A stretch of 64,000 nucleotides of DNA from a virus (IMGVR_UViG_3300045988_050969), one strand, 5' to 3'. Shown: positions 43,179 to 57,270, counted from the first letter of the stretch. The notes: generated by a model not told the origin, from the letters alone. Numbers and translations are program-made.

Positions 43179-43407
43179 CTATTGAGATAATAATTTATAA
43201 CTTAAAATTCTTTAATTATGAAAAATATATGTTGGGGAGATTTCCAGTGACTGCAACCTAGTTTCTTAAGCTAGGGATTTATACGCCTTATGTTTAGTAC
43301 TCCCCACCTGGGCTAACGTTTACCCCAGACTACCTGTTCGTGATAACTACCTATCCAACAAGTTTCCTTCTGCTATTGTAATTTCAAAGGACTAGTGTTT
43401 TAATTTG

Positions 43408-43479
43408 TCCTCCTACCATAGAATCGAACTCGGACTTACGGGGCTAGAATCCGTCGTGCTGCCACTACACCATAGGAGA
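43408..43479 (-). tRNA. suppressor tRNA, anticodon CUA (decodes UAG)
   Basis: Minus strand: TCTCCTA-TG-GTGT-AGTGGCA-GCAC-G-ACGGA-[TT CTA GC]-CCCGT-AAGT(C)-..G-TTCGATT-C..-TAGGAGG-A. Anticodon loop is U33-CUA-G37, and the D-loop GG and T-loop TTCGA are present. The T-stem is weak and the acceptor/T register is ambiguous. Confidence 0.75.
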
Positions 43480-50836: not shown

Positions 50837-51117
50837 GAGAACAAAAACAGTAAGTACTCTATCACACCTACCTGACTAGAATTCAGGAGTGGACGGCCTC
50901 TGATAAGTAACTTACTAAAAAACTCAATAACATCCCAAGACATTGAGGGCACCAGTTTCTTATATTAGCGTAAGGCTTACGGAAGAAGTTATAGTTCCTA
51001 CATGGATGAAAAGACGTACTTAGAGTTAATAACTCAGCGCTATAACAGTATGCAGCTATAAAGATATAAGTTTTAGGTGTAAAATGCAATTTAACTATTA
51101 ACTAAATAAATAATCAT

Positions 51118-51201: not shown

Positions 51202-51898
51202 GATATACAGATTTATTCGCAAAGTAATTATTCTATGAAATGCAAATTATCCTCATATGTTGTGAAACATAATTTAACCACGTTAAAGTATAATAATATA
51301 AGTTAGGTATGCCCTTATAAAGACTTAGGTAGCGCTAAGGACTATATTATTATACTTCTCTTCTTAATGCAGCCGAGTGCCGGTGACAAGCCCGACAGAA
51401 TGCAGAGTCAAGAAAAATAATTTATTATCATTATTACGCATTCTATGCACAAGAAATGTAGTAGTTGAGAAGATGATAGATTATAATCCACGTGGTAGAT
51501 GCAGTTGTAGGTTCCAACTGGTGCACATCTTTTAGAGACAGTAACCAAGCTCGAAGTAAGCAGAGCGAAGATAGAAGCTATACCTTGATAGGCTTAATGA
51601 GGTGCTTAACAGTCTGACACTAACTGAACAATAAGTGTCCTCAGTTCCGGGTGAGTAAAGTGAATGTGGAATATATCGGACTACAGCCTCGAAGAAAGGT
51701 TCCACCAAGTATGTCAAAACTTGAGTAGAAAGTTGTACTATAACCAAAAGTATAACAGACTTAATAGAGTAAGAGAATAGAAATGTGTATATCTACGTAG
51801 TTCATAGCATAGCTTATAATCGTATAATGCAACATCGATTATATTAATGCGCTTACTCTATTATTTTTATTGCATTAACTAACAAATAAATCAATTAT

Positions 51899-52129
51899 AT
51901 GGAAACAAAAGTAATACTGTTTATTATTCATCTAACATTAGGTATAATTAGTGGTATAATCTATCTAATATACTGTTATAAAAAATACGAGGTATTGACA
52001 TTAGCAGATGCAATAGCATCTTTATTAATGTTATTTGGATGGCCAATTGTTCTATTAGCTTTATCTAGTCATTACTTTTTACTTTTTATGAGTAATCTTG
52101 AAGAGATTAGAATATTAGAGAAAAAATAA
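51899..52129 (+). CDS. small membrane protein (76 aa)
   Basis: Intact ORF with two hydrophobic helices. Confidence 0.6.
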   Translation: METKVILFIIHLTLGIISGIIYLIYCYKKYEVLTLADAIASLLMLFGWPIVLLALSSHYFLLFMSNLEEIRILEKK

Positions 52130-52149
52130 CTAATAAATAATATCAAATT

Positions 52150-52578
52150 ATGAAGAAAATAACTTGTATTCAGAATTATGTAATAGATAAGCTTATTGAA
52201 GACGAGAAATTATCTACAAATAGTCTATTAGATGCAATATCCAAAGTATGTTCAAAGGAACAATTTGATAATATACTATCTATTCTTATAGAAACACCTA
52301 TTCCTTGTACAAATATGCCTGAATTAGAAAGTAAAACAAGCTTAGTAGGAATAAGCATGTTTATACCTGAAGAAGTTAGTGGTTCTACTAAAATAGAGAT
52401 AATAAAAATAATAAAAGACCAATTTGGTCTTCGTCTTGGACAAGCTAAAGAATATGTAGATAGTTGCATAGGGAAATACGGTATGGTTCCTAAGGTTGTT
52501 GCACAAGAAGAAGTAGATATTATTACCGAAAAATTAAAACCTTACCATGTAAGTGTATCTATAGTAGGATTTTATTAA
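52150..52578 (+). CDS. protein with a ribosomal L7/L12 C-terminal-domain-like region (142 aa)
   Basis: KIEIIKIIKDQFGLRLGQAKEYVDS...VVAQEEVDIITEKLKPYHVSVSI parallels the L7/L12 CTD sequence [25 protein letters not shown]...[22 protein letters not shown]. Confidence 0.45.
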   Translation: MKKITCIQNYVIDKLIEDEKLSTNSLLDAISKVCSKEQFDNILSILIETPIPCTNMPELESKTSLVGISMFIPEEVSGSTKIEIIKIIKDQFGLRLGQAKEYVDSCIGKYGMVPKVVAQEEVDIITEKLKPYHVSVSIVGFY

Positions 52579-52609
52579 AAGTTAATGCAGTAAATATTAC
52601 TGCATCTAT

Positions 52610-52712
52610 ACTGTGAGAATCAGTATCAACTTTGTGGGGCTTATATTTAGACAATGTATGATAATAGTTGCAAATGTTATTATATAATCTAATATTAGTG
52701 CAGATGAAATCA
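52610..52712 (+). ncRNA. structured RNA-like element, copy A1
   Basis: Hairpin ACTG-tgagaat-CAGT (52610..52624), TGTGGGGCTTATAT (52633..52646) and ATTAGTGCAGATGAAATCA (52694..52712). Confidence 0.4.
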
Positions 52713-52791
52713 AAGATAGTTCGTATTTGCGGTATTGCGGGATACGAACAAGTCAAGTCATTATAAGACTGGGTAGCGTAATACAAAAAAT

Positions 52792-52812
52792 CCTAGCTGA
52801 CCTGTAGCTAGG
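52792..52812 (+). terminator. terminator-like hairpin between copies A1 and A2
   Basis: CCTAGCT-gacctgt-AGCTAGG followed by TATCTTT. Confidence 0.4.
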
Positions 52813-52819
52813 TATCTTT

Positions 52820-52934
52820 AAGGTGAGAATCCTTGACAATCCTGTGGGGCTTATATCTATCAAAAGAACTTACAGCAGCTTTTATATTAGCTTAGCTGGA
52901 CTTTATGATAGTATTAGTGCAGACGTTAAAATCA
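52820..52934 (+). ncRNA. structured RNA-like element, copy A2
   Basis: Hairpin AAGG-tgagaat-CCTT (52820..52834), TGTGGGGCTTATAT (52843..52856) and ATTAGTGCAGACGTTAAAATCA (52913..52934). Confidence 0.4.
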
Positions 52935-53263
52935 GGAACAACTACATCATTACTAACAATATTATCGGTCACAAGTCTAACGACAATATGATGTAGCCAA
53001 GTTTGTTCGTCCTTAGATTTACAGTATCAGCCATTTGTTTATTTAATCATTGTTCGTTCTTAATTATACAGATTGATTAATTAAGCATAACAGTAAGCGT
53101 ACTGTTGTCAGTATATTTATATGTGAATATAGATATACTGATTGCACTCAAAAGCTGGCCTTCACGTGGCGAGTGTGTTAAGTAATAGGTCTAAAAAATC
53201 TTCCAGTTTTACCTATGAAAACTAACAGCTACCTTTTTATTAACTTTAATAACTATCAAAAAT

Positions 53264-53449
53264 ATGTATAAAAAACTATCAAATTTAAATGTTGGAGATA
53301 TATTCCAATATGGAGACACTATATATGAAATAGTAGAAAAAGGAGTATGGCATGCAAAATGCAAGTATATTAATGAAACTCCTAAATCGGAATATTCACC
53401 TGAATATTTATTTATAAATTTTAGTCTTTATACTCGAGTTAAAGTTTAA
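53264..53449 (+). CDS. small hypothetical protein (61 aa)
   Basis: Intact ORF. Confidence 0.5.
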   Translation: MYKKLSNLNVGDIFQYGDTIYEIVEKGVWHAKCKYINETPKSEYSPEYLFINFSLYTRVKV

Positions 53450-53460
53450 TAATTTTAAAT

Positions 53461-53544
53461 GCCCAGATGTTGAAATAGGTAGACAATCCACACTTAAACT
53501 GTGGTGACCATTTGGTCGTGCGGGTTCGACTCCCGCTCTGGGTA
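53461..53544 (+). tRNA. tRNA-Leu (anticodon UAA), class II
   Basis: Acceptor GCCCAGA/TCTGGGT, D-loop AATAGGTA, anticodon arm CCACA-[CT TAA AC]-TGTGG, long variable arm GACC-ATTT-GGTC, T-arm GCGGG-TTCGACT-CCCGC. Closely parallels E. coli tRNA-Leu(UAA). Confidence 0.9.
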
Positions 53545-53576
53545 CAATTAGTAATTAACATTAAAATCAATTTAAT

Positions 53577-53876
53577 ATGAAAGAAGAAAAACTTACAAGA
53601 TTAAAAATTCTAAGAGTAATGTCATATGATCTCTTACACTTCCTTATGAGGGAAAAAATACTTAGTGTATTTCTAACTGAATGCTTAAACAATAGCTATT
53701 CCTGGGTTCTTAAAAACAGAATAGAACAAGGAATATTTCAAAATCGAAGTATTACATTACATGATATGTATGAATTTGAAAATTATTTCACATTTAGTGT
53801 GTCTACTACTTTTACTGAAAGTGCTTGGTGGAGATATGCATTTAAATATAGGGAGGAGTATTCATGGAAAGTCTAA
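53577..53876 (+). CDS. hypothetical early protein (99 aa)
   Basis: Intact ORF. Confidence 0.55.
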   Translation: MKEEKLTRLKILRVMSYDLLHFLMREKILSVFLTECLNNSYSWVLKNRIEQGIFQNRSITLHDMYEFENYFTFSVSTTFTESAWWRYAFKYREEYSWKV

Positions 53877-54175
53877 ATAGTATTACTAAATATATAGTAG
53901 GTGCTATAATATTTGTATTTATACTTATGTGGATAGCTGACAAGCTATTTATTGCGCATGTTAATACTGCTACAGAGTTTTTAGATAATTATAAGAATTA
54001 TATAATAATAAGAAAAGATAAAGGTATAAATGATTATATACTTACTATTAAAAATCCTTATACTCAAGATATTAGGTATCGAATTACTAATGTAACTGTT
54101 CCTTCTGGATTATGGTATAATTATTCTATAGGAGATACTATTGGTAAGAAAAAGCAGATATATTTTAATCAATAA
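53864..54175 (+). CDS. membrane-anchored early protein (103 aa)
   Basis: Intact ORF. N-terminal TM segment. GGGAGGAG lies upstream of the ATG. Confidence 0.55.
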   Translation: MESLNSITKYIVGAIIFVFILMWIADKLFIAHVNTATEFLDNYKNYIIIRKDKGINDYILTIKNPYTQDIRYRITNVTVPSGLWYNYSIGDTIGKKKQIYFNQ

Positions 54176-54187
54176 AAGTAAGTAGTT

Positions 54188-54556
54188 ATGAAAAGAGAAG
54201 AAATTAAATCTTACAAAGATGCCTGCAAAGTAATAGGTAGAAAACCTAGAACTTATAAAGATAAGCATCTAAATCTGTATGAACAGCTTAGTACAATTAC
54301 AGCTGCTCTGAACTTTATTAGTAATAATAACAAACCTTGGAAACCTAAGTTTGATTATTATTATATCTATTCTTGGTTATACAGAAAAGATGGATATAAT
54401 AAATCTGCGGGTTTGTTCTCTTTGGCTTCTCGCAATGGGTTGGACGATTCCCTTGCTCATGTCGGGACTTCTCTGAAGATAAAAGAAAGAGAGGATGGAA
54501 ATTACATAATAGAAAACTTTAAAGAACTACTCCAAGATTGGTTTTGGGGAAATTAA
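54188..54556 (+). CDS. hypothetical early protein (122 aa)
   Basis: Intact ORF. Confidence 0.55.
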   Translation: MKREEIKSYKDACKVIGRKPRTYKDKHLNLYEQLSTITAALNFISNNNKPWKPKFDYYYIYSWLYRKDGYNKSAGLFSLASRNGLDDSLAHVGTSLKIKEREDGNYIIENFKELLQDWFWGN

Positions 54557-54582
54557 TTACTAATTTTAAAAACATTATCAAA

Positions 54583-55041
54583 ATGGAAAATGAAATGATG
54601 GCGAGACCCGAACCGCCAAGAAGAACTGTTTGGGTAATAGTAGCAATCATTGCCTTAATAGGCATGTTTGGAGCAATGATTTATGCAGAGCGTGAAAACA
54701 TTGCTAATTTCTTAAATGGTGTGAACCAAGAAGAAGTACAAGAAGATCCTCAAGTTATCATTGAGGAACCTGTAACAACAATACAGGATATTCTCGATAT
54801 GAGAGAGCAAATGAGAGAAGATAGAAGAGTTGACAGTGTATTTTTAGCTATGCCAAAGGTAGTATTAATTGATATTTTGATGCAGCATGGTACATCATTG
54901 TCTATAAAAGACATGATTTACATATATGAATCAAACACATCAACGTACAACACAGTATTATCTGGAGCAAGAGCTCAAAAATATCTTGATGATTCTATAA
55001 AAACTAGTCCCTTACCAACGGTTGTAAACGACTCTATTTGA
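54583..55041 (+). CDS. membrane-anchored early protein (152 aa)
   Basis: First ATG at 54583, within track ORF 54538..55041. TM segment VWVIVAIIALIGMFGAMIY. Confidence 0.55.
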   Translation: MENEMMARPEPPRRTVWVIVAIIALIGMFGAMIYAERENIANFLNGVNQEEVQEDPQVIIEEPVTTIQDILDMREQMREDRRVDSVFLAMPKVVLIDILMQHGTSLSIKDMIYIYESNTSTYNTVLSGARAQKYLDDSIKTSPLPTVVNDSI

Positions 55042-55088
55042 AATTAAAACTAAACCTTCTTTCTGTTTTAAATGAATATTAGAGTCTA

Positions 55089-55263
55089 GTATACTCAGTC
55101 TGTGAAGATAGAGTATACGTCCTCAGAAAATGACAAGCATGTGGGGCGTAAGTATATACAGTAGGTTATCGTTTATCCTCATTTATACAGGTTAATTGCG
55201 CAACTGTAAAAAACGGGATTGATAGAATAGATGGTATATATGATCGTGCGGACGTTAAAATCA
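55089..55263 (+). ncRNA. structured RNA-like element, copy B
   Basis: Hairpin GTATACTC-agtctgtgaagata-GAGTATAC (55089..55118), TGTGGGGC (55140..55147), stem GTATATAC/GTATATAT and GTGCGGACGTTAAAATCA (55246..55263). Confidence 0.4.
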
Positions 55264-55457
55264 TGTACTCCAATAAGATTTAGTTTGACAGCTACTTCTG
55301 CTTATGAGTTAAAACTATAGTGAGAGTCATAGTAAGTAACGATTGTGGTCGTTTATCTTTGTCTTATAACAAATGCTATAAACCCAGTAGTTGGCACTAA
55401 CTTAATTAAATCCTGAGTGCCCAGGCGTCATTATTAATCAATTTAAACGTTTAGATT

Positions 55458-55721
55458 ATGGGAATATTATCAAAATTAACCAGAACAATGCGTATTAGAA
55501 AAATACGCAGAGAAGCTAGGCAAAAAGCTTATGAAGCATTGTGCCTGTCACCATTAAAATACTCTAGAGCAATTGCTGAAATAGATTGTATTATTGATGG
55601 TCACAAATGGAGTAGTGAATTTGATCCTAAAAAGGAAATAGCTAAAGGCACTACTAAGAGAGCATATTGCAAACATTGTGGAGTATACTATCATACTCAC
55701 ACTTATAAAGAAGATATATGA
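55458..55721 (+). CDS. hypothetical early protein (87 aa)
   Basis: Intact ORF ending in TGA. Confidence 0.55.
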   Translation: MGILSKLTRTMRIRKIRREARQKAYEALCLSPLKYSRAIAEIDCIIDGHKWSSEFDPKKEIAKGTTKRAYCKHCGVYYHTHTYKEDI

Positions 55722-55945
55722 AAAAATTAAGTAATGGATACCTAGAGACAAAATTTAAAGTATTCCGTCGTAGTGATGATACTATGGTAGACGAAACAGA
55801 AGCTTATATTAAAATAGACTCTATAGTAGGAATATGTAGAAGTATTAAAAGTAATACTACAGATATAATACTTGCAAGTGGAGATAGGTATACAACTACA
55901 GAGAATTTTGAGGATTTCTGCATAGATTTTTTTAAAGAAAATTAA
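55718..55945 (+). CDS. hypothetical early protein (75 aa)
   Basis: Intact ORF. ATGA overlap with the previous gene. Confidence 0.55.
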   Translation: MKKLSNGYLETKFKVFRRSDDTMVDETEAYIKIDSIVGICRSIKSNTTDIILASGDRYTTTENFEDFCIDFFKEN

Positions 55946-56665: not shown

Positions 56666-56885
56666 CCCTAAACAAGTTAGTATGGTGCAGTCAACCCAGA
56701 ACTATTATTATCAACCAGACCCCTAATGGAAGCTTAGTAACAACTAAGCTTACTAAGCAAGAGTACAATGGACTATACAACGGTCAACCAGTATCTAATA
56801 TTGGTTTAAGATGAAGGAAAAGGGTTGCCTATGAATAAGAGATACGAATAAGTAGGATAGTAGTTCTTTTAAAGAAATTAAAGAA

Positions 56886-56945
56886 ATTGACTGTTAGGTC
56901 TATTGAATCGTCGTTTGGACGAGGGTTCGACTCCCTCATGCTCCA
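56886..56945 (+). tRNA. tRNA-like element: class-II variable arm, T-arm and 3' acceptor strand; no convincing 5' half
   Basis: GTC-gtttg-GAC, then GAGGG-TTCGACT-CCCTC, then ATGCTCC-A. No complementary GGAGCAT lies upstream. The only local stem is AATTGAC-tgttag-GTCTATT, which has a 6-nt loop. Confidence 0.3.
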
Positions 56946-56960
56946 CTAATAATAAACTGT

Positions 56961-57065
56961 ATGAAAAATAAAGAAAGAACTTGGCTTGAAGCTATTTTCT
57001 ATGCTATGTTTGCTGTAGGTATCACAGGTACTATAATACTTATAATTGGGGCATTATGGTTTTGA
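56961..57065 (+). CDS. mini-ORF encoding a 34-aa TM peptide
   Basis: MKNKERTWLEAIFYAMFAVGITGTIILIIGALWF. Confidence 0.3.
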   Translation: MKNKERTWLEAIFYAMFAVGITGTIILIIGALWF

Positions 57066-57190
57066 CAGCGATATAAGAAGAAATAGAATAGGTCAATAAG
57101 CAGATAACTGGCAATACAAGTTATGTTATGAACTATAGCCGTATTGCGGCGTAAGTTCAAAACGGCTAAGCTAATGTCGTAGAAAGCTGG

Positions 57191-57270
57191 AGTAAGGATA
57201 GTACTCAGATGGTAGAGCGGTGAGATAATATCAAAAGCTGGTATCGGAGGTTCGAGTCCTCCCCTTACTA
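57191..57270 (+). tRNA. tRNA-like gene with a good acceptor, D-arm and T-arm but an unfoldable anticodon arm
   Basis: AGTAAGG...CCTTACT-A acceptor (7 bp), ACTC-AGATGGTA-GAGC D-arm, GGAGG-TTCGAGT-CCTCC T-arm. Total 80 nt. The central GTGAGATAATATCAAAA does not pair. There are 5 nt rather than 2 between the acceptor and D stems. Confidence 0.4.

What the first reader, a model, noticed from the sequence alone, without database searches (positions are those of the whole stretch)
52580..55457. Three copies of a conserved structured RNA-like element with compensatory stem changes
Copies A1 (52610..52712), A2 (52820..52934) and B (55089..55263) share an ordered set of blocks:
1. A hairpin whose loop is conserved but whose stem co-varies: ACTG-tgagaat-CAGT, AAGG-tgagaat-CCTT and GTATACTC-..gtgaagata-GAGTATAC.
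2. An invariant TGTGGGGC. In A1 and A2 this sits exactly 11 nt after the GTGAGAATC block.
3. A stem whose 5' strand follows directly (TTATAT/ATATAA in A1, and GTATATAC/GTATATAT in B) and which encloses a variable insert.
4. A conserved GTGC(A/G)GA(C/T)G(TT)AAAATCA block.

No ORF covers these copies. A1 and A2 lie just upstream of tRNA-Leu. B lies in the next intergenic gap. A weaker relative may exist at about 51648..51680 (GTGAGtaaagtgaaTGTGGaaTATAT). Covarying stems argue for function at the RNA level, such as a ribozyme, riboswitch or processing signal, or for a protein-bound RNA, rather than a plain promoter.
Basis: seen in the sequence. Interest (0 to 1): 0.75.

Follow-up and report, generated by a model that had tools for sequence, protein, structure and literature searches.

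The report
Three Hatchet self-cleaving ribozymes

Summary
The three copies are real. They are full-length matches to the Hatchet self-cleaving ribozyme (Rfam RF02678): 85.5, 103.6 and 90.4 bits against a threshold of 51, E 1e-17 to 1e-22, all on the + strand.

A1 and A2 are the long form, with a 6-bp P1 and a UGAGAAU loop. B is the short form, with a 3-bp P1. B's catalytic core differs from the biochemically validated construct Ht-2 only by compensatory P2 changes and by A65G, which is known to be tolerated.

It is the accessory P0 hairpin, 5' of the cleavage site. Predicted cuts are U52607|A52608, U52817|U52818 and C55122|U55123.

The proposed fourth copy at 51648-51680 is not supported.

The window is a crAss-like phage of the family Suoliviridae. 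All 11 relatives examined carry Hatchets at the matching positions. P1-P3 pair in 252 of 252 cells, with compensatory changes in 8 of 15 pairs.

The most likely role, which is inferred and not shown, is host-independent cutting of a polycistronic early transcript. This would leave a hairpin-capped 3' end upstream and a 5'-OH end downstream.

The family is already known, so interest is low to moderate. Two apparently undescribed structured RNAs nearby are the more novel leads.

The parts
52585..52605 (+). P0 accessory hairpin of copy A1 (9 bp, ATGCAGTAA / TTACTGCAT). It starts 6 nt after the stop codon of ORF 52150-52578 and would stay on the 3' end of the upstream cleavage product.
   Evidence: The unconstrained MFE fold shows it. 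Li et al. 2015 report a P0 hairpin 5' of the cleavage site in about 90% of Hatchets.
52607..52608 (+). Predicted scissile bond of A1, between U52607 (-1) and A52608 (+1, the first nucleotide of P1).
   Evidence: The position is taken from the validated sites: dC1-U2 in Ht-2, and U1 pairing with A19 as the first P1 base pair in the crystal structure. It is mapped through the Rfam alignment. Cleavage itself was not tested.
52608..52715 (+). Hatchet ribozyme A1, long-P1 type.
- P1 52608-13/52621-26, loop UGAGAAU 52614-20
- CAA 52627-29
- P2 52630-34/52711-15
- UGG 52635-37
- P3 52638-41 with 52697-99 and 52701 (G52700 bulged)
- L3 and P4 52642-96
- L2 3' strand 52702-10, 3 nt shorter than the consensus
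   Evidence: RF02678 at 85.5 bits, threshold 51. The MFE fold reproduces P0-P4. An identical copy occurs in cr53_1.
52792..52812 (+). P0 hairpin of copy A2 (8 bp, CCTAGCTG / TAGCTAGG).
   Evidence: MFE fold. The terminator scan also picked it up as a stem-loop.
52817..52818 (+). Predicted scissile bond of A2, U52817|U52818.
   Evidence: Same mapping as for A1. Homology with the closest relative cr115_1 resumes at 52815, 3 nt before this site.
52818..52937 (+). Hatchet ribozyme A2, long-P1 type.
- P1 52818-23/52831-36, loop 52824-30
- CAA 52837-39
- P2 52840-44/52933-37
- P3 52848-51 with 52916-18 and 52920
- L3 and P4 52852-52915
- L2 3' strand 52921-32 (AGACGUUAAAAU, the consensus)
   Evidence: RF02678 at 103.6 bits. 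The MFE and centroid folds equal the family structure.
52608..52817 (+). The 210-nt RNA that the two tandem cleavages would release: ribozyme A1, a spacer hairpin, and the P0 of A2. Predicted ends are 5'-OH and 2',3'-cyclic phosphate.
   Evidence: Inference from the two predicted sites. The tandem arrangement recurs: 26 adjacent pairs spaced 105-169 nt among 119 locus-strands with at least one Hatchet core.
55089..55118 (+). P0 hairpin of copy B: an 8-bp stem, an A-A mismatch, a 4-bp stem, and a GUGA tetraloop at 55102-05.
   Evidence: Fold at -13.6 kcal/mol, z = -4.3. The stem covaries while the GUGA loop is kept in the matching P0 of all relatives.
55122..55123 (+). Predicted scissile bond of B, C55122|U55123. 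This is the same C|UCA context as the validated Ht-2 construct.
55123..55266 (+). Hatchet ribozyme B, short-P1 type.
- P1 55123-25/55131-33, loop GAAAA
- CAA 55134-36
- P2 55137-41/55262-66
- UGG 55142-44
- P3 55145-48 with 55245-47 and 55249
- L3 UAA (55149-51) / GAU (55242-44)
- P4 55152-55241
- L2 3' strand 55250-61, with G at position 65
   Evidence: RF02678 at 90.4 bits. The A65G mutant cleaves like wild type.

Best explanation
A1, A2 and B are three Hatchet self-cleaving ribozymes. They are encoded on the same strand as the surrounding small genes, in the early, ncRNA-rich region of a crAss-like phage of the family Suoliviridae.

**Mechanism (established for the family).** Once transcribed, each RNA folds into P1-P4. 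The conserved CAA linker and the two strands of loop L2 build the active site. The 2'-OH of the nucleotide just 5' of P1 attacks its own phosphate, in a Mg2+-dependent reaction.

**Predicted cuts.** U52607|A52608, U52817|U52818 and C55122|U55123. Each cut should leave a 2',3'-cyclic phosphate upstream and a 5'-OH downstream.

**Inferred role (about 50% likely).** The ribozymes cut a long polycistronic transcript into separate units without host RNases and without stopping transcription.
- The upstream piece ends a few nucleotides after the P0 hairpin, which acts as a terminator-like protective 3' cap right behind a stop codon.
- The downstream piece starts with a 5'-OH and a compact ribozyme fold.
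- The A1-A2 tandem would also release a discrete 210-nt RNA.

**Shown here:** family membership, all conserved core nucleotides, covariation, and conserved position in relatives.
**Inferred:** that these copies cleave (most secure for B and A2, less so for A1), and what the cleavage is for.
For: **Family match**
- Rfam RF02678 matches are full length at 85.5, 103.6 and 90.4 bits, threshold 51.
- All core nucleotides reported as highly conserved are present: C20-A22, U28-G31, G63-G66 and A73-A75.
- B has G at position 65. The A65G mutant shows wild-type cleavage.

**Subtypes and experimental anchor**
- P1 is 6 bp in A1 and A2 and 3 bp in B. These are exactly the two lengths reported, 59% and 40% of the family.
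- A P0 hairpin precedes each copy, as in about 90% of the family.
- The published Ht-2 construct is identical in its core to the syntenic (same-position) copy in phage cr4_1 (L004:4661). It differs from B only by compensatory P2 changes and by A65G.

**Covariation and strand**
- In 19 distinct copies from 12 Suoliviridae genomes, 252 of 252 P1-P3 cells pair, and 8 of 15 pairs change on both sides.
- Slid controls pair in 20-48% of cells, and 0 of 1000 shuffles reach the observed value.
- Unconstrained folds of A1 and A2 reproduce P0-P4. The minus strand folds 9-11 kcal/mol worse.

**Context**
- All 18 Hatchets found in the 11 relatives are on the gene strand. A copy at B's position occurs in all 11 relatives. 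Copies at A1/A2-like positions occur in five.
- In 47 of 48 short-P1 copies from public viral collections, a same-strand ORF ends within 120 nt upstream of the cut, median 75 nt.
Against: **Activity**
- No cleavage assay or transcript-end data exist for these copies.
- A1 lacks 3 nt of the L2 3' strand (GAUG---AAAUCA). This includes the equivalent of U71, which pairs with A65 in the crystal structure. Only the neighbouring A67-U70 segment has been shown to be dispensable, so A1's activity is less certain.
- A1 and A2 have U at -1, not the C of the tested constructs. However, U is the commonest -1 nucleotide in 121 natural copies: U 72, C 37.
- B's minimum-energy fold does not form P2.

**Role**
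- The biological role of Hatchet ribozymes is unknown in the literature I could read.
- The processing and 3'-end-formation role is inference from anatomy.
- The context statistics come largely from one syntenic locus, so they are not independent observations.
Confidence: 0.88

Rival explanations
1. The copies are Hatchet-derived but at least one, most plausibly A1, no longer cleaves. It would persist as a structural spacer or decoy, so the tandem pair is one active ribozyme plus a relic.
For: A1 has a 3-nt deletion in the L2 3' strand, and its score is the lowest of the three at 85.5 bits. The deletion removes the U71 equivalent, which pairs with A65 in the crystal structure.
Against: - The short-L2 form is a recurrent, conserved subclass: GTGCAGAGAAAT occurs in 13 and GTGCAGATGAAAT in 3 distinct copies out of 121.
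- Every strictly conserved nucleotide and all stems are intact.
- The adjacent L2 segment tolerates replacement, insertion and even strand scission.
Confidence: 0.12
2. The tandem Hatchets belong to a selfish or viroid-like unit. Cleavage at both sites yields a monomer that a host RtcB-type ligase circularises. The ribozymes would then serve that element and not phage gene expression.
For: - Hatchet ribozymes occur in 34 clusters of viroid-like covalently closed circular RNAs of 357-567 nt.
- The two cuts would give a 210-nt RNA with ligatable ends.
- The window segment 51202-52814 is absent from the closest relative, and the junction lies 3 nt from the A2 cleavage site.
Against: - The spacer between A1 and A2 is not conserved outside one close relative.
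- The 210-nt unit is smaller than any reported circle.
- Copy B, and most Hatchets in these phages, are single and sit at a fixed syntenic position behind an ORF.
- No reverse transcriptase or replicase lies nearby.
Confidence: 0.06
3. The elements are ligand- or protein-controlled switches (riboswitch-like or protein-bound), and their conserved blocks form a binding pocket rather than a catalytic site.
Against: - No riboswitch family matches, even at E<=10.
- The conserved blocks coincide nucleotide for nucleotide with the catalytic core of a ribozyme whose structure and mutants are published.
- Family members cleave with Mg2+ alone.
Confidence: 0.02
4. The blocks are DNA-level signals (promoter or operator), and transcription starts downstream of them.
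For: The copies are intergenic, AT-rich and repeated.
Against: - Sigma-70-like sites are not enriched: 36 found against 41 expected.
- Compensatory changes keep RNA pairing.
- The invariant G-U pair in P3 would be a C-A mismatch on the other strand.
- The + strand folds much better than the - strand.
Confidence: 0.01

Closest known systems
Hatchet ribozyme, Rfam RF02678 (Weinberg et al. 2015; Li et al. 2015, constructs Ht-1 and Ht-2; crystal structure Zheng et al. 2019)
   Same: - Same four-stem architecture and same conserved core.
- Same two P1 lengths, and the same P0 hairpin.
- Cleavage site at the 5' base of P1.
- The core of Ht-2 is identical to the syntenic copy in the related phage cr4_1, and nearly identical to B.
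   Different: Nothing in kind. Details:
- A1 has a shortened L2 3' strand.
- B has G65.
- A1 and A2 have U at -1.
- The published papers I could read place the family only in unassigned metagenomic DNA. Here the carrier is identifiable as a Suoliviridae crAss-like phage.
Theta (minimal HDV-like) ribozymes of gut phages (Kienbeck et al. 2024, PMC10879173)
   Same: - Small self-cleaving ribozymes in gut phage genomes, on the sense strand, in noncoding gaps.
- They cleave at their own 5' edge, so they define the 3' end of whatever lies upstream.
- They occur in phages that recode stop codons.
   Different: - A different fold and a different family.
- Theta ribozymes abut tRNA 3' ends. Here the upstream partner is an mRNA stop codon plus the P0 hairpin. 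The tRNA-Leu lies more than 500 nt downstream of A2 and has no ribozyme at its 3' end.
Hatchet-bearing viroid-like circular RNAs (Lee et al., bioRxiv 10.1101/2022.07.19.500677)
   Same: The same ribozyme family and low GC content.
   Different: Those are 357-567-nt circular RNAs from mostly aquatic metatranscriptomes. The copies here are embedded in a roughly 100-kb dsDNA phage genome between genes.
Synthetic ribozyme insulators such as RiboJ (from my own knowledge, not checked here)
   Same: This is what the element may work like. A self-cleaving ribozyme followed by a hairpin removes the upstream RNA context and gives the downstream gene a defined 5' end.
   Different: RiboJ is an engineered hammerhead-type ribozyme that cleaves near its 3' side. 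This is a functional analogy only. There is no homology, and it is untested for the phage.

Membership tests
Hatchet ribozyme (RF02678) | Covariance-model score at or above Rfam's gathering threshold (51 bits) over the full model | tested here: met
   85.5 bits (A1), 103.6 (A2) and 90.4 (B). All match model positions 1-133 and none is truncated.
Hatchet ribozyme (RF02678) | Four stems P1-P4, with P1 of exactly 3 or 6 bp | tested here: met
   A1 and A2 have a 6-bp P1, B has a 3-bp P1, and P2 (5 bp), P3 and P4 are present.
Hatchet ribozyme (RF02678) | Highly conserved nucleotides: the CAA linker (C20-A22), U28-G31, G63-G66 and A73-A75 | tested here: met
   All are present in all three copies. 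B has G at position 65, which is 'conserved as purine' and whose A65G mutant is fully active.
Hatchet ribozyme (RF02678) | Stems supported by compensatory changes among homologues | tested here: met
   19 distinct copies from 12 phages give 252 of 252 cells paired, with 8 of 15 pairs changed on both sides. Slid controls pair in 20-48% of cells, and 0 of 1000 shuffles reach the observed value.
Hatchet ribozyme (RF02678) | P0 hairpin a few nucleotides 5' of the cleavage site (present in about 90% of members; not required for catalysis) | tested here: met
   52585-52605, 52792-52812 and 55089-55118. They end 2, 5 and 4 nt before the predicted cut.
Hatchet ribozyme (RF02678) | Mg2+-dependent self-cleavage at the 5' base of P1, giving 2',3'-cyclic phosphate and 5'-OH ends | not testable with these tools
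   This needs an in-vitro cleavage assay. It has been shown for Ht-1 and Ht-2, and the Ht-2 core equals the copy in cr4_1 that is syntenic with B.
Hatchet ribozyme (RF02678), proposed fourth copy at 51648-51680 | Any match to the family model; presence of the CAA linker, GGGGC and the 3' GUGC..AAAUCA block | tested here: not met
   No Hatchet match at E<=5 in 7.2 kb or at E<=10 in 561 nt. No 3' block follows it. It has no homologue in relatives.
Other self-cleaving ribozyme or riboswitch families of Rfam 15 (twister, pistol, hammerhead, HDV-like, riboswitches) | A model match overlapping the three copies | tested here: not met
   Only Hatchet matches these intervals, even at E<=10.

The most novel reading that the evidence does not exclude
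In Suoliviridae crAss-like phages, Hatchet ribozymes (together with a twister-like ribozyme) act as a phage-encoded, host-independent punctuation system. They would cut a long early transcript carrying small ORFs and many ncRNAs: RAGATH-6, RAGATH-7, RAGATH-9, tRNA-Leu, a permuted tmRNA and two undescribed pseudoknotted RNAs.
- P0 would be a functional part, not an optional one. It would cap the new 3' end.
- In the short-P1 subtype, P0's strictly conserved GNRA tetraloop, together with the subtype-specific L3 (UAA/GAU, a UAA/GAN-type loop), would replace the L1-L3 tertiary contact of the long subtype.
- The ribozyme's 5' edge would also mark a boundary where gene cassettes are exchanged between phages.
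Probability: 0.3. Interest if true: 0.55.

Novelty: already known. Interest (0 to 1): 0.25.

Why it matters
This finding adds no new kind of RNA. The Hatchet class has a curated model, published biochemistry and a crystal structure.

**What the analysis adds is context.**
- The published work I could read places Hatchets only in unassigned metagenomic DNA and gives them no biological role.
- Here they can be placed in the early, ncRNA-dense region of Suoliviridae crAss-like phages. They sit at conserved positions, on the gene strand, directly behind stop codons, and sometimes in tandem.
- The RefSeq records of the related phages do not annotate them.

**This makes the open question of what Hatchet ribozymes are for directly testable.** Two experiments would address it:
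- map RNA ends in gut metatranscriptomes;
- test P0 and the two subtypes at physiological Mg2+.

The neighbourhood also holds two covariation-supported or covariation-suggested RNA structures that match no Rfam family.

Tried and rejected
- **Fourth copy at 51648-51680.** Rejected: no model match and no conservation in relatives.
- **Promoter or terminator reading.** Sigma-70-like sites are not enriched. The only terminator-like hit on the gene strand within the copies is the P0 of A2. Bacteroidota-type promoters were not scanned.
- **Neighbouring ORFs.** PHROGs and Pfam give almost no function. The exceptions are one unknown-function PHROG and one marginal L7/L12 C-terminal domain hit. Gene content therefore gives no functional clue.
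- **Discovery paper.** Weinberg et al. 2015 (PMC4509812) is not held. I could not check what was said there about P0 loops, 3' flanks or phage origin.
- **Literature link to crAss-like phages.** Searches for Hatchet or ribozymes together with crAss-like phages found no paper linking the two.
- **RNAalifold on the element 3' of B.** A MAFFT alignment gave no consensus structure. The support for that element rests on per-sequence folds and inspection, so it is weaker.
- **Scan of bacterial and archaeal genomes with the 18-nt 3' block.**
  - 34 hits were found, about what chance predicts (roughly 35 by my own estimate).
  - Only 10 carry a full Hatchet core.
  - All 10 are on low-GC contigs of metagenome-assembled genomes. 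Four of those contigs are 99-101 kb, phage-sized.
  - None is in an isolate genome.
- **Cleavage-site assignment.** My first assignment, after the conserved C at -2, was wrong. It was corrected from the Ht-2 and crystal-structure numbering.
- **Bias in the 121-copy set.** P1 pairing in that set is partly circular, because perfect P1 pairing was a selection criterion there. The covariation claim therefore rests on the 19 copies defined by Rfam.
Full report
**1. Observation**

I read 51400-55800 and ran Rfam over the whole window and, more permissively, over sub-regions.

The three elements are full-length matches to one family, the Hatchet self-cleaving ribozyme (RF02678):

| Copy | Coordinates | Score (threshold 51 bits) |
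|---|---|---|
| A1 | 52604-52715 | 85.5 bits |
| A2 | 52814-52937 | 103.6 bits |
| B | 55119-55266 | 90.4 bits |

- All three are on the + strand, with E-values of 2e-16 to 5e-21 for the 64-kb window. No other Hatchet is in the window.
- Block 1 in A1 and A2 is stem-loop P1. Block 3 is P3 plus P4.
- Only mechanical non-ATG ORFs overlap A1 and A2.

**2. What the literature defines**

- Li et al. 2015 (PMC4604424) describe P1-P4 and 13 highly conserved nucleotides.
  - P1 is "almost always" 3 bp (40%) or 6 bp (59%).
  - A functionally dispensable P0 hairpin lies 5' of the cleavage site in about 90% of members.
  - Cleavage is Mg2+-dependent, occurs at the base of P1, and gives 2',3'-cyclic phosphate and 5'-OH ends.
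  - All 210 examples then known came from metagenomes.
- Zheng et al. 2019 (PMC6561176) give the structure.
  - U1 pairs with A19 as the first P1 base pair.
  - The conserved segments are C20-A22, U28-G31, G63-G66 and A73-A75.
  - A65G is fully active, while G63A and G66A are nearly dead.
  - The L2 segment A67-U70 can be replaced, extended or even split without loss of activity.
- The SHAPE paper (PMC6101554) prints the Ht-2 sequence with the cleavage site marked, C|UCAGAAAAUGACAA.

**3. Anatomy of the three copies**

*Cleavage sites.* Mapping the published sites through the Rfam alignment gives U52607|A52608, U52817|U52818 and C55122|U55123. My first guess, one nucleotide further 5', was wrong and was corrected.

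*Subtypes.*
- A1 and A2 are the long form, with a 6-bp P1 and loop UGAGAAU.
- B is the short form, UCA-GAAAA-UGA.

*P0 hairpins.*
- Each copy is preceded by a P0 hairpin: 52585-52605, 52792-52812 and 55089-55118.

*Conserved nucleotides and deviations.*
- All conserved nucleotides are present.
- B carries the tolerated G65.
- A1 lacks three nucleotides of the L2 3' strand, in or next to the segment shown to be dispensable. The deletion includes the U71 equivalent, so A1's activity is the least certain.
- This short-L2 form recurs in at least 16 of 121 distinct copies.

*Folding.*
- Unconstrained folding reproduces P0-P4 for A1 and A2 on the + strand.
- The - strand folds 9-11 kcal/mol worse.

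**4. Relatives and covariation**

*Genome and relatives.*
- The window is a crAss-like phage (Crassvirales, Suoliviridae). It is about 96% identical in its structural genes to cr115_1.
- I fetched the homologous region of 11 Suoliviridae genomes. Rfam finds 18 more Hatchets there, all on the gene strand.
- One copy at B's position, behind the ORF annotated 'shock protein B' in several relatives, occurs in all 11.
- Copies at A-like positions occur in five.
- None is annotated in the RefSeq records.

*Covariation.*
- With fixed-offset alignment of the 19 distinct sequences, P1, P2 and P3 pair in 252 of 252 cells, and 8 of 15 pairs change on both sides.
- With the partner slid by 1-3 nt, only 20-48% of cells pair.
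- 0 of 1000 column shuffles reach the observed value.
- The P3 G-U pair is invariant, which fixes the functional strand.

*Experimental anchor.*
- The core of the tested Ht-2 construct is identical to the cr4_1 copy L004:4661.
- It differs from B only by compensatory P2 changes and by A65G.

**5. Wider distribution**

Most contigs listed are 50-103 kb and some are 120-253 kb.
- From these and the earlier loci I extracted 121 distinct Hatchets.
  - P1 is exactly 3 bp with a 5-nt loop in 62, and 6 bp with a 7-nt loop in 59.
  - The -1 nucleotide is U in 72, C in 37, A in 10 and G in 2.
- Tandem pairs spaced 105-169 nt occur 26 times.
- The same pattern in 596 Gb of bacterial and archaeal genomes gave 34 hits, about the chance expectation (roughly 35 by my own estimate).
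  - Only 10 have a full Hatchet core.
  - All 10 are on low-GC contigs of metagenome-assembled genomes, four of them phage-sized.
  - None is in an isolate.
- This agrees with the statement that no sequenced organism carries one, and points to lytic phages as the carriers.

**6. How it most likely works**

Catalysis is established for the family and inferred for these copies. The role is inferred from anatomy:

- The ribozymes are co-oriented with the genes.
- P0 and the cut lie directly behind a stop codon.
  - For A1, the stop codon ends at 52578 and P0 begins at 52585.
  - For B, the stop codon ends at 55041.
  - In 47 of 48 short-P1 copies, an ORF ends within 120 nt upstream of the cut.
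- Because Hatchet cuts at its own 5' edge, P0 stays on the upstream product as a 3' hairpin. The downstream product begins with a 5'-OH and the folded ribozyme.
- I therefore read them as transcript-punctuation and 3'-end-forming elements that do not stop transcription. This is analogous to theta ribozymes at tRNA 3' ends.
- The A1-A2 pair would release a 210-nt RNA.
- Comparison with cr115_1 shows that window 51202-52814 is absent there. Homology resumes at 52815, 3 nt before the A2 cut. This fits ribozymes lying at cassette boundaries, but it is a single case.

**7. Rivals**

- A DNA-level motif is excluded by the covariation and the strand asymmetry.
- A riboswitch or protein-binding role has no support.
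- A relic status for A1, and a viroid-like circular unit (Hatchets do occur in circular RNAs), remain possible at low probability.

**8. A detail that may be new**

- In the 121-copy set, the two subtypes differ in linked modules.
  - A 3-bp P1 goes with L3 = UAA/GAU or UAA/AAU, and with a GNRA-capped P0 in 61 of 61 copies (59 GUGA).
  - A 6-bp P1 goes with L3 = UAU/AUU, and with a GNRA P0 in only 12 of 58.
- Li et al. state that P0 lacks sequence conservation.
- In the structure of the long form, the L1-L3 contact is crucial. The short form may use a different contact.
- The sample is phylogenetically narrow, and most short-form copies are orthologues at one locus. Common descent is therefore a sufficient alternative explanation.

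**9. Verdict**

- The interpretation (an RNA-level ribozyme or processing signal) is supported.
- The family is already known.
- Interest is low to moderate. The value lies in the genomic context and in the neighbouring undescribed RNAs.

Noticed in passing
window 53084-53235: A conserved, pseudoknotted RNA of about 150 nt lies between Hatchet A2 and the 61-aa ORF/tRNA-Leu.
- Helices:
  - H0 53089-95/53100-06
  - H1 53108-22/53127-41, a 15-bp hairpin with a GUGA loop
  - S2 53144-49/53171-76
  - S3 53158-70
  - S4 53185-90/53211-16
  - pseudoknot 53153-57 with 53226-30
- Homologues were found in 52 loci, 39 of them distinct sequences.
- On 25 distinct sequences, 95.8% of cells pair (26-50% when slid), 25 of 43 pairs change on both sides, and 0 of 500 shuffles reach the covariation score.
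- No Rfam family matches at E<=10.
- It is possibly an undescribed RNA class. Its function is unknown.
   Followed up: partly
window 55267-55330: A conserved element lies directly 3' of Hatchet B, and 3' of nearly every short-P1 Hatchet.
- The closing stem covaries across lineages: ACUC/GAGU, ACAC/GUGU, GAGU/ACUC, CGUU/AACG, AGAU/AUCU.
- An inner hairpin has the loop UUUGACA (55284-90).
- That loop may pair with GUCA at 55326-29. One lineage shows UGGC/GCCA, a change on both sides that would keep this pairing.
- The evidence comes from per-sequence folds and inspection.
- RNAalifold on a MAFFT alignment found nothing, so this is weaker than the item above.
   Followed up: partly
window 51210-51640 and 56687-57245: The neighbourhood is an ncRNA island:
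- RAGATH-6 at 51210-51360
- a twister-P1-like element at 51361-51413 (37 bits, below the 67-bit threshold, E 2e-6, lacking the optional P3), lying between RAGATH-6 and RAGATH-7
- RAGATH-7 at 51417-51640
- RAGATH-9 at 56687-56867, abutting a permuted tmRNA at 56853-57245 (tag peptide GNTSYVMNYSRIAA)
   Followed up: partly
window 51202-52814 versus NC_055898 (L001 2792-2828): This 1.6-kb segment has no counterpart in the closest relative, cr115_1. It holds RAGATH-6, the twister-like element, RAGATH-7, two ORFs, Hatchet A1 and the P0 of A2. Homology resumes at 52815, 3 nt before the A2 cleavage site. The A1-A2 spacer is 100% identical to cr53_1, a phage of a different subfamily. The region is therefore mosaic.
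   Followed up: partly
window 52150-52578 (+): The 142-aa ORF just upstream of Hatchet A1 has a marginal match to the ribosomal protein L7/L12 C-terminal domain (PF00542, 26.9 bits against a cutoff of 25.9). Relatives also carry a separate ORF annotated 'ribosomal protein-like protein' further downstream.
   Followed up: no
window 43407-43479 (-): A tRNA with anticodon CTA, labelled tRNA-Pyl by ARAGORN, is in effect an amber suppressor. This fits the TAG reassignment reported for Suoliviridae.
   Followed up: no
window 50916-50970 and 51063-51090: Short noncoding blocks at the start of the ncRNA island are 88-98% identical in eight of the eleven Suoliviridae relatives, and about 79% in cr115_1. 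In six of them the alignment starts exactly at the edge of the earlier blast match. No Rfam match was found, and their function is unknown.
   Followed up: no
L004:7705-7994, L010:6650-6909 (related phages): Group I introns (75-97 bits) and RAGATH-14, RAGATH-20 and RAGATH-7-assoc RNAs occur in the same region of relatives but not in the window. The ncRNA content of this island varies between close phages.
   Followed up: no
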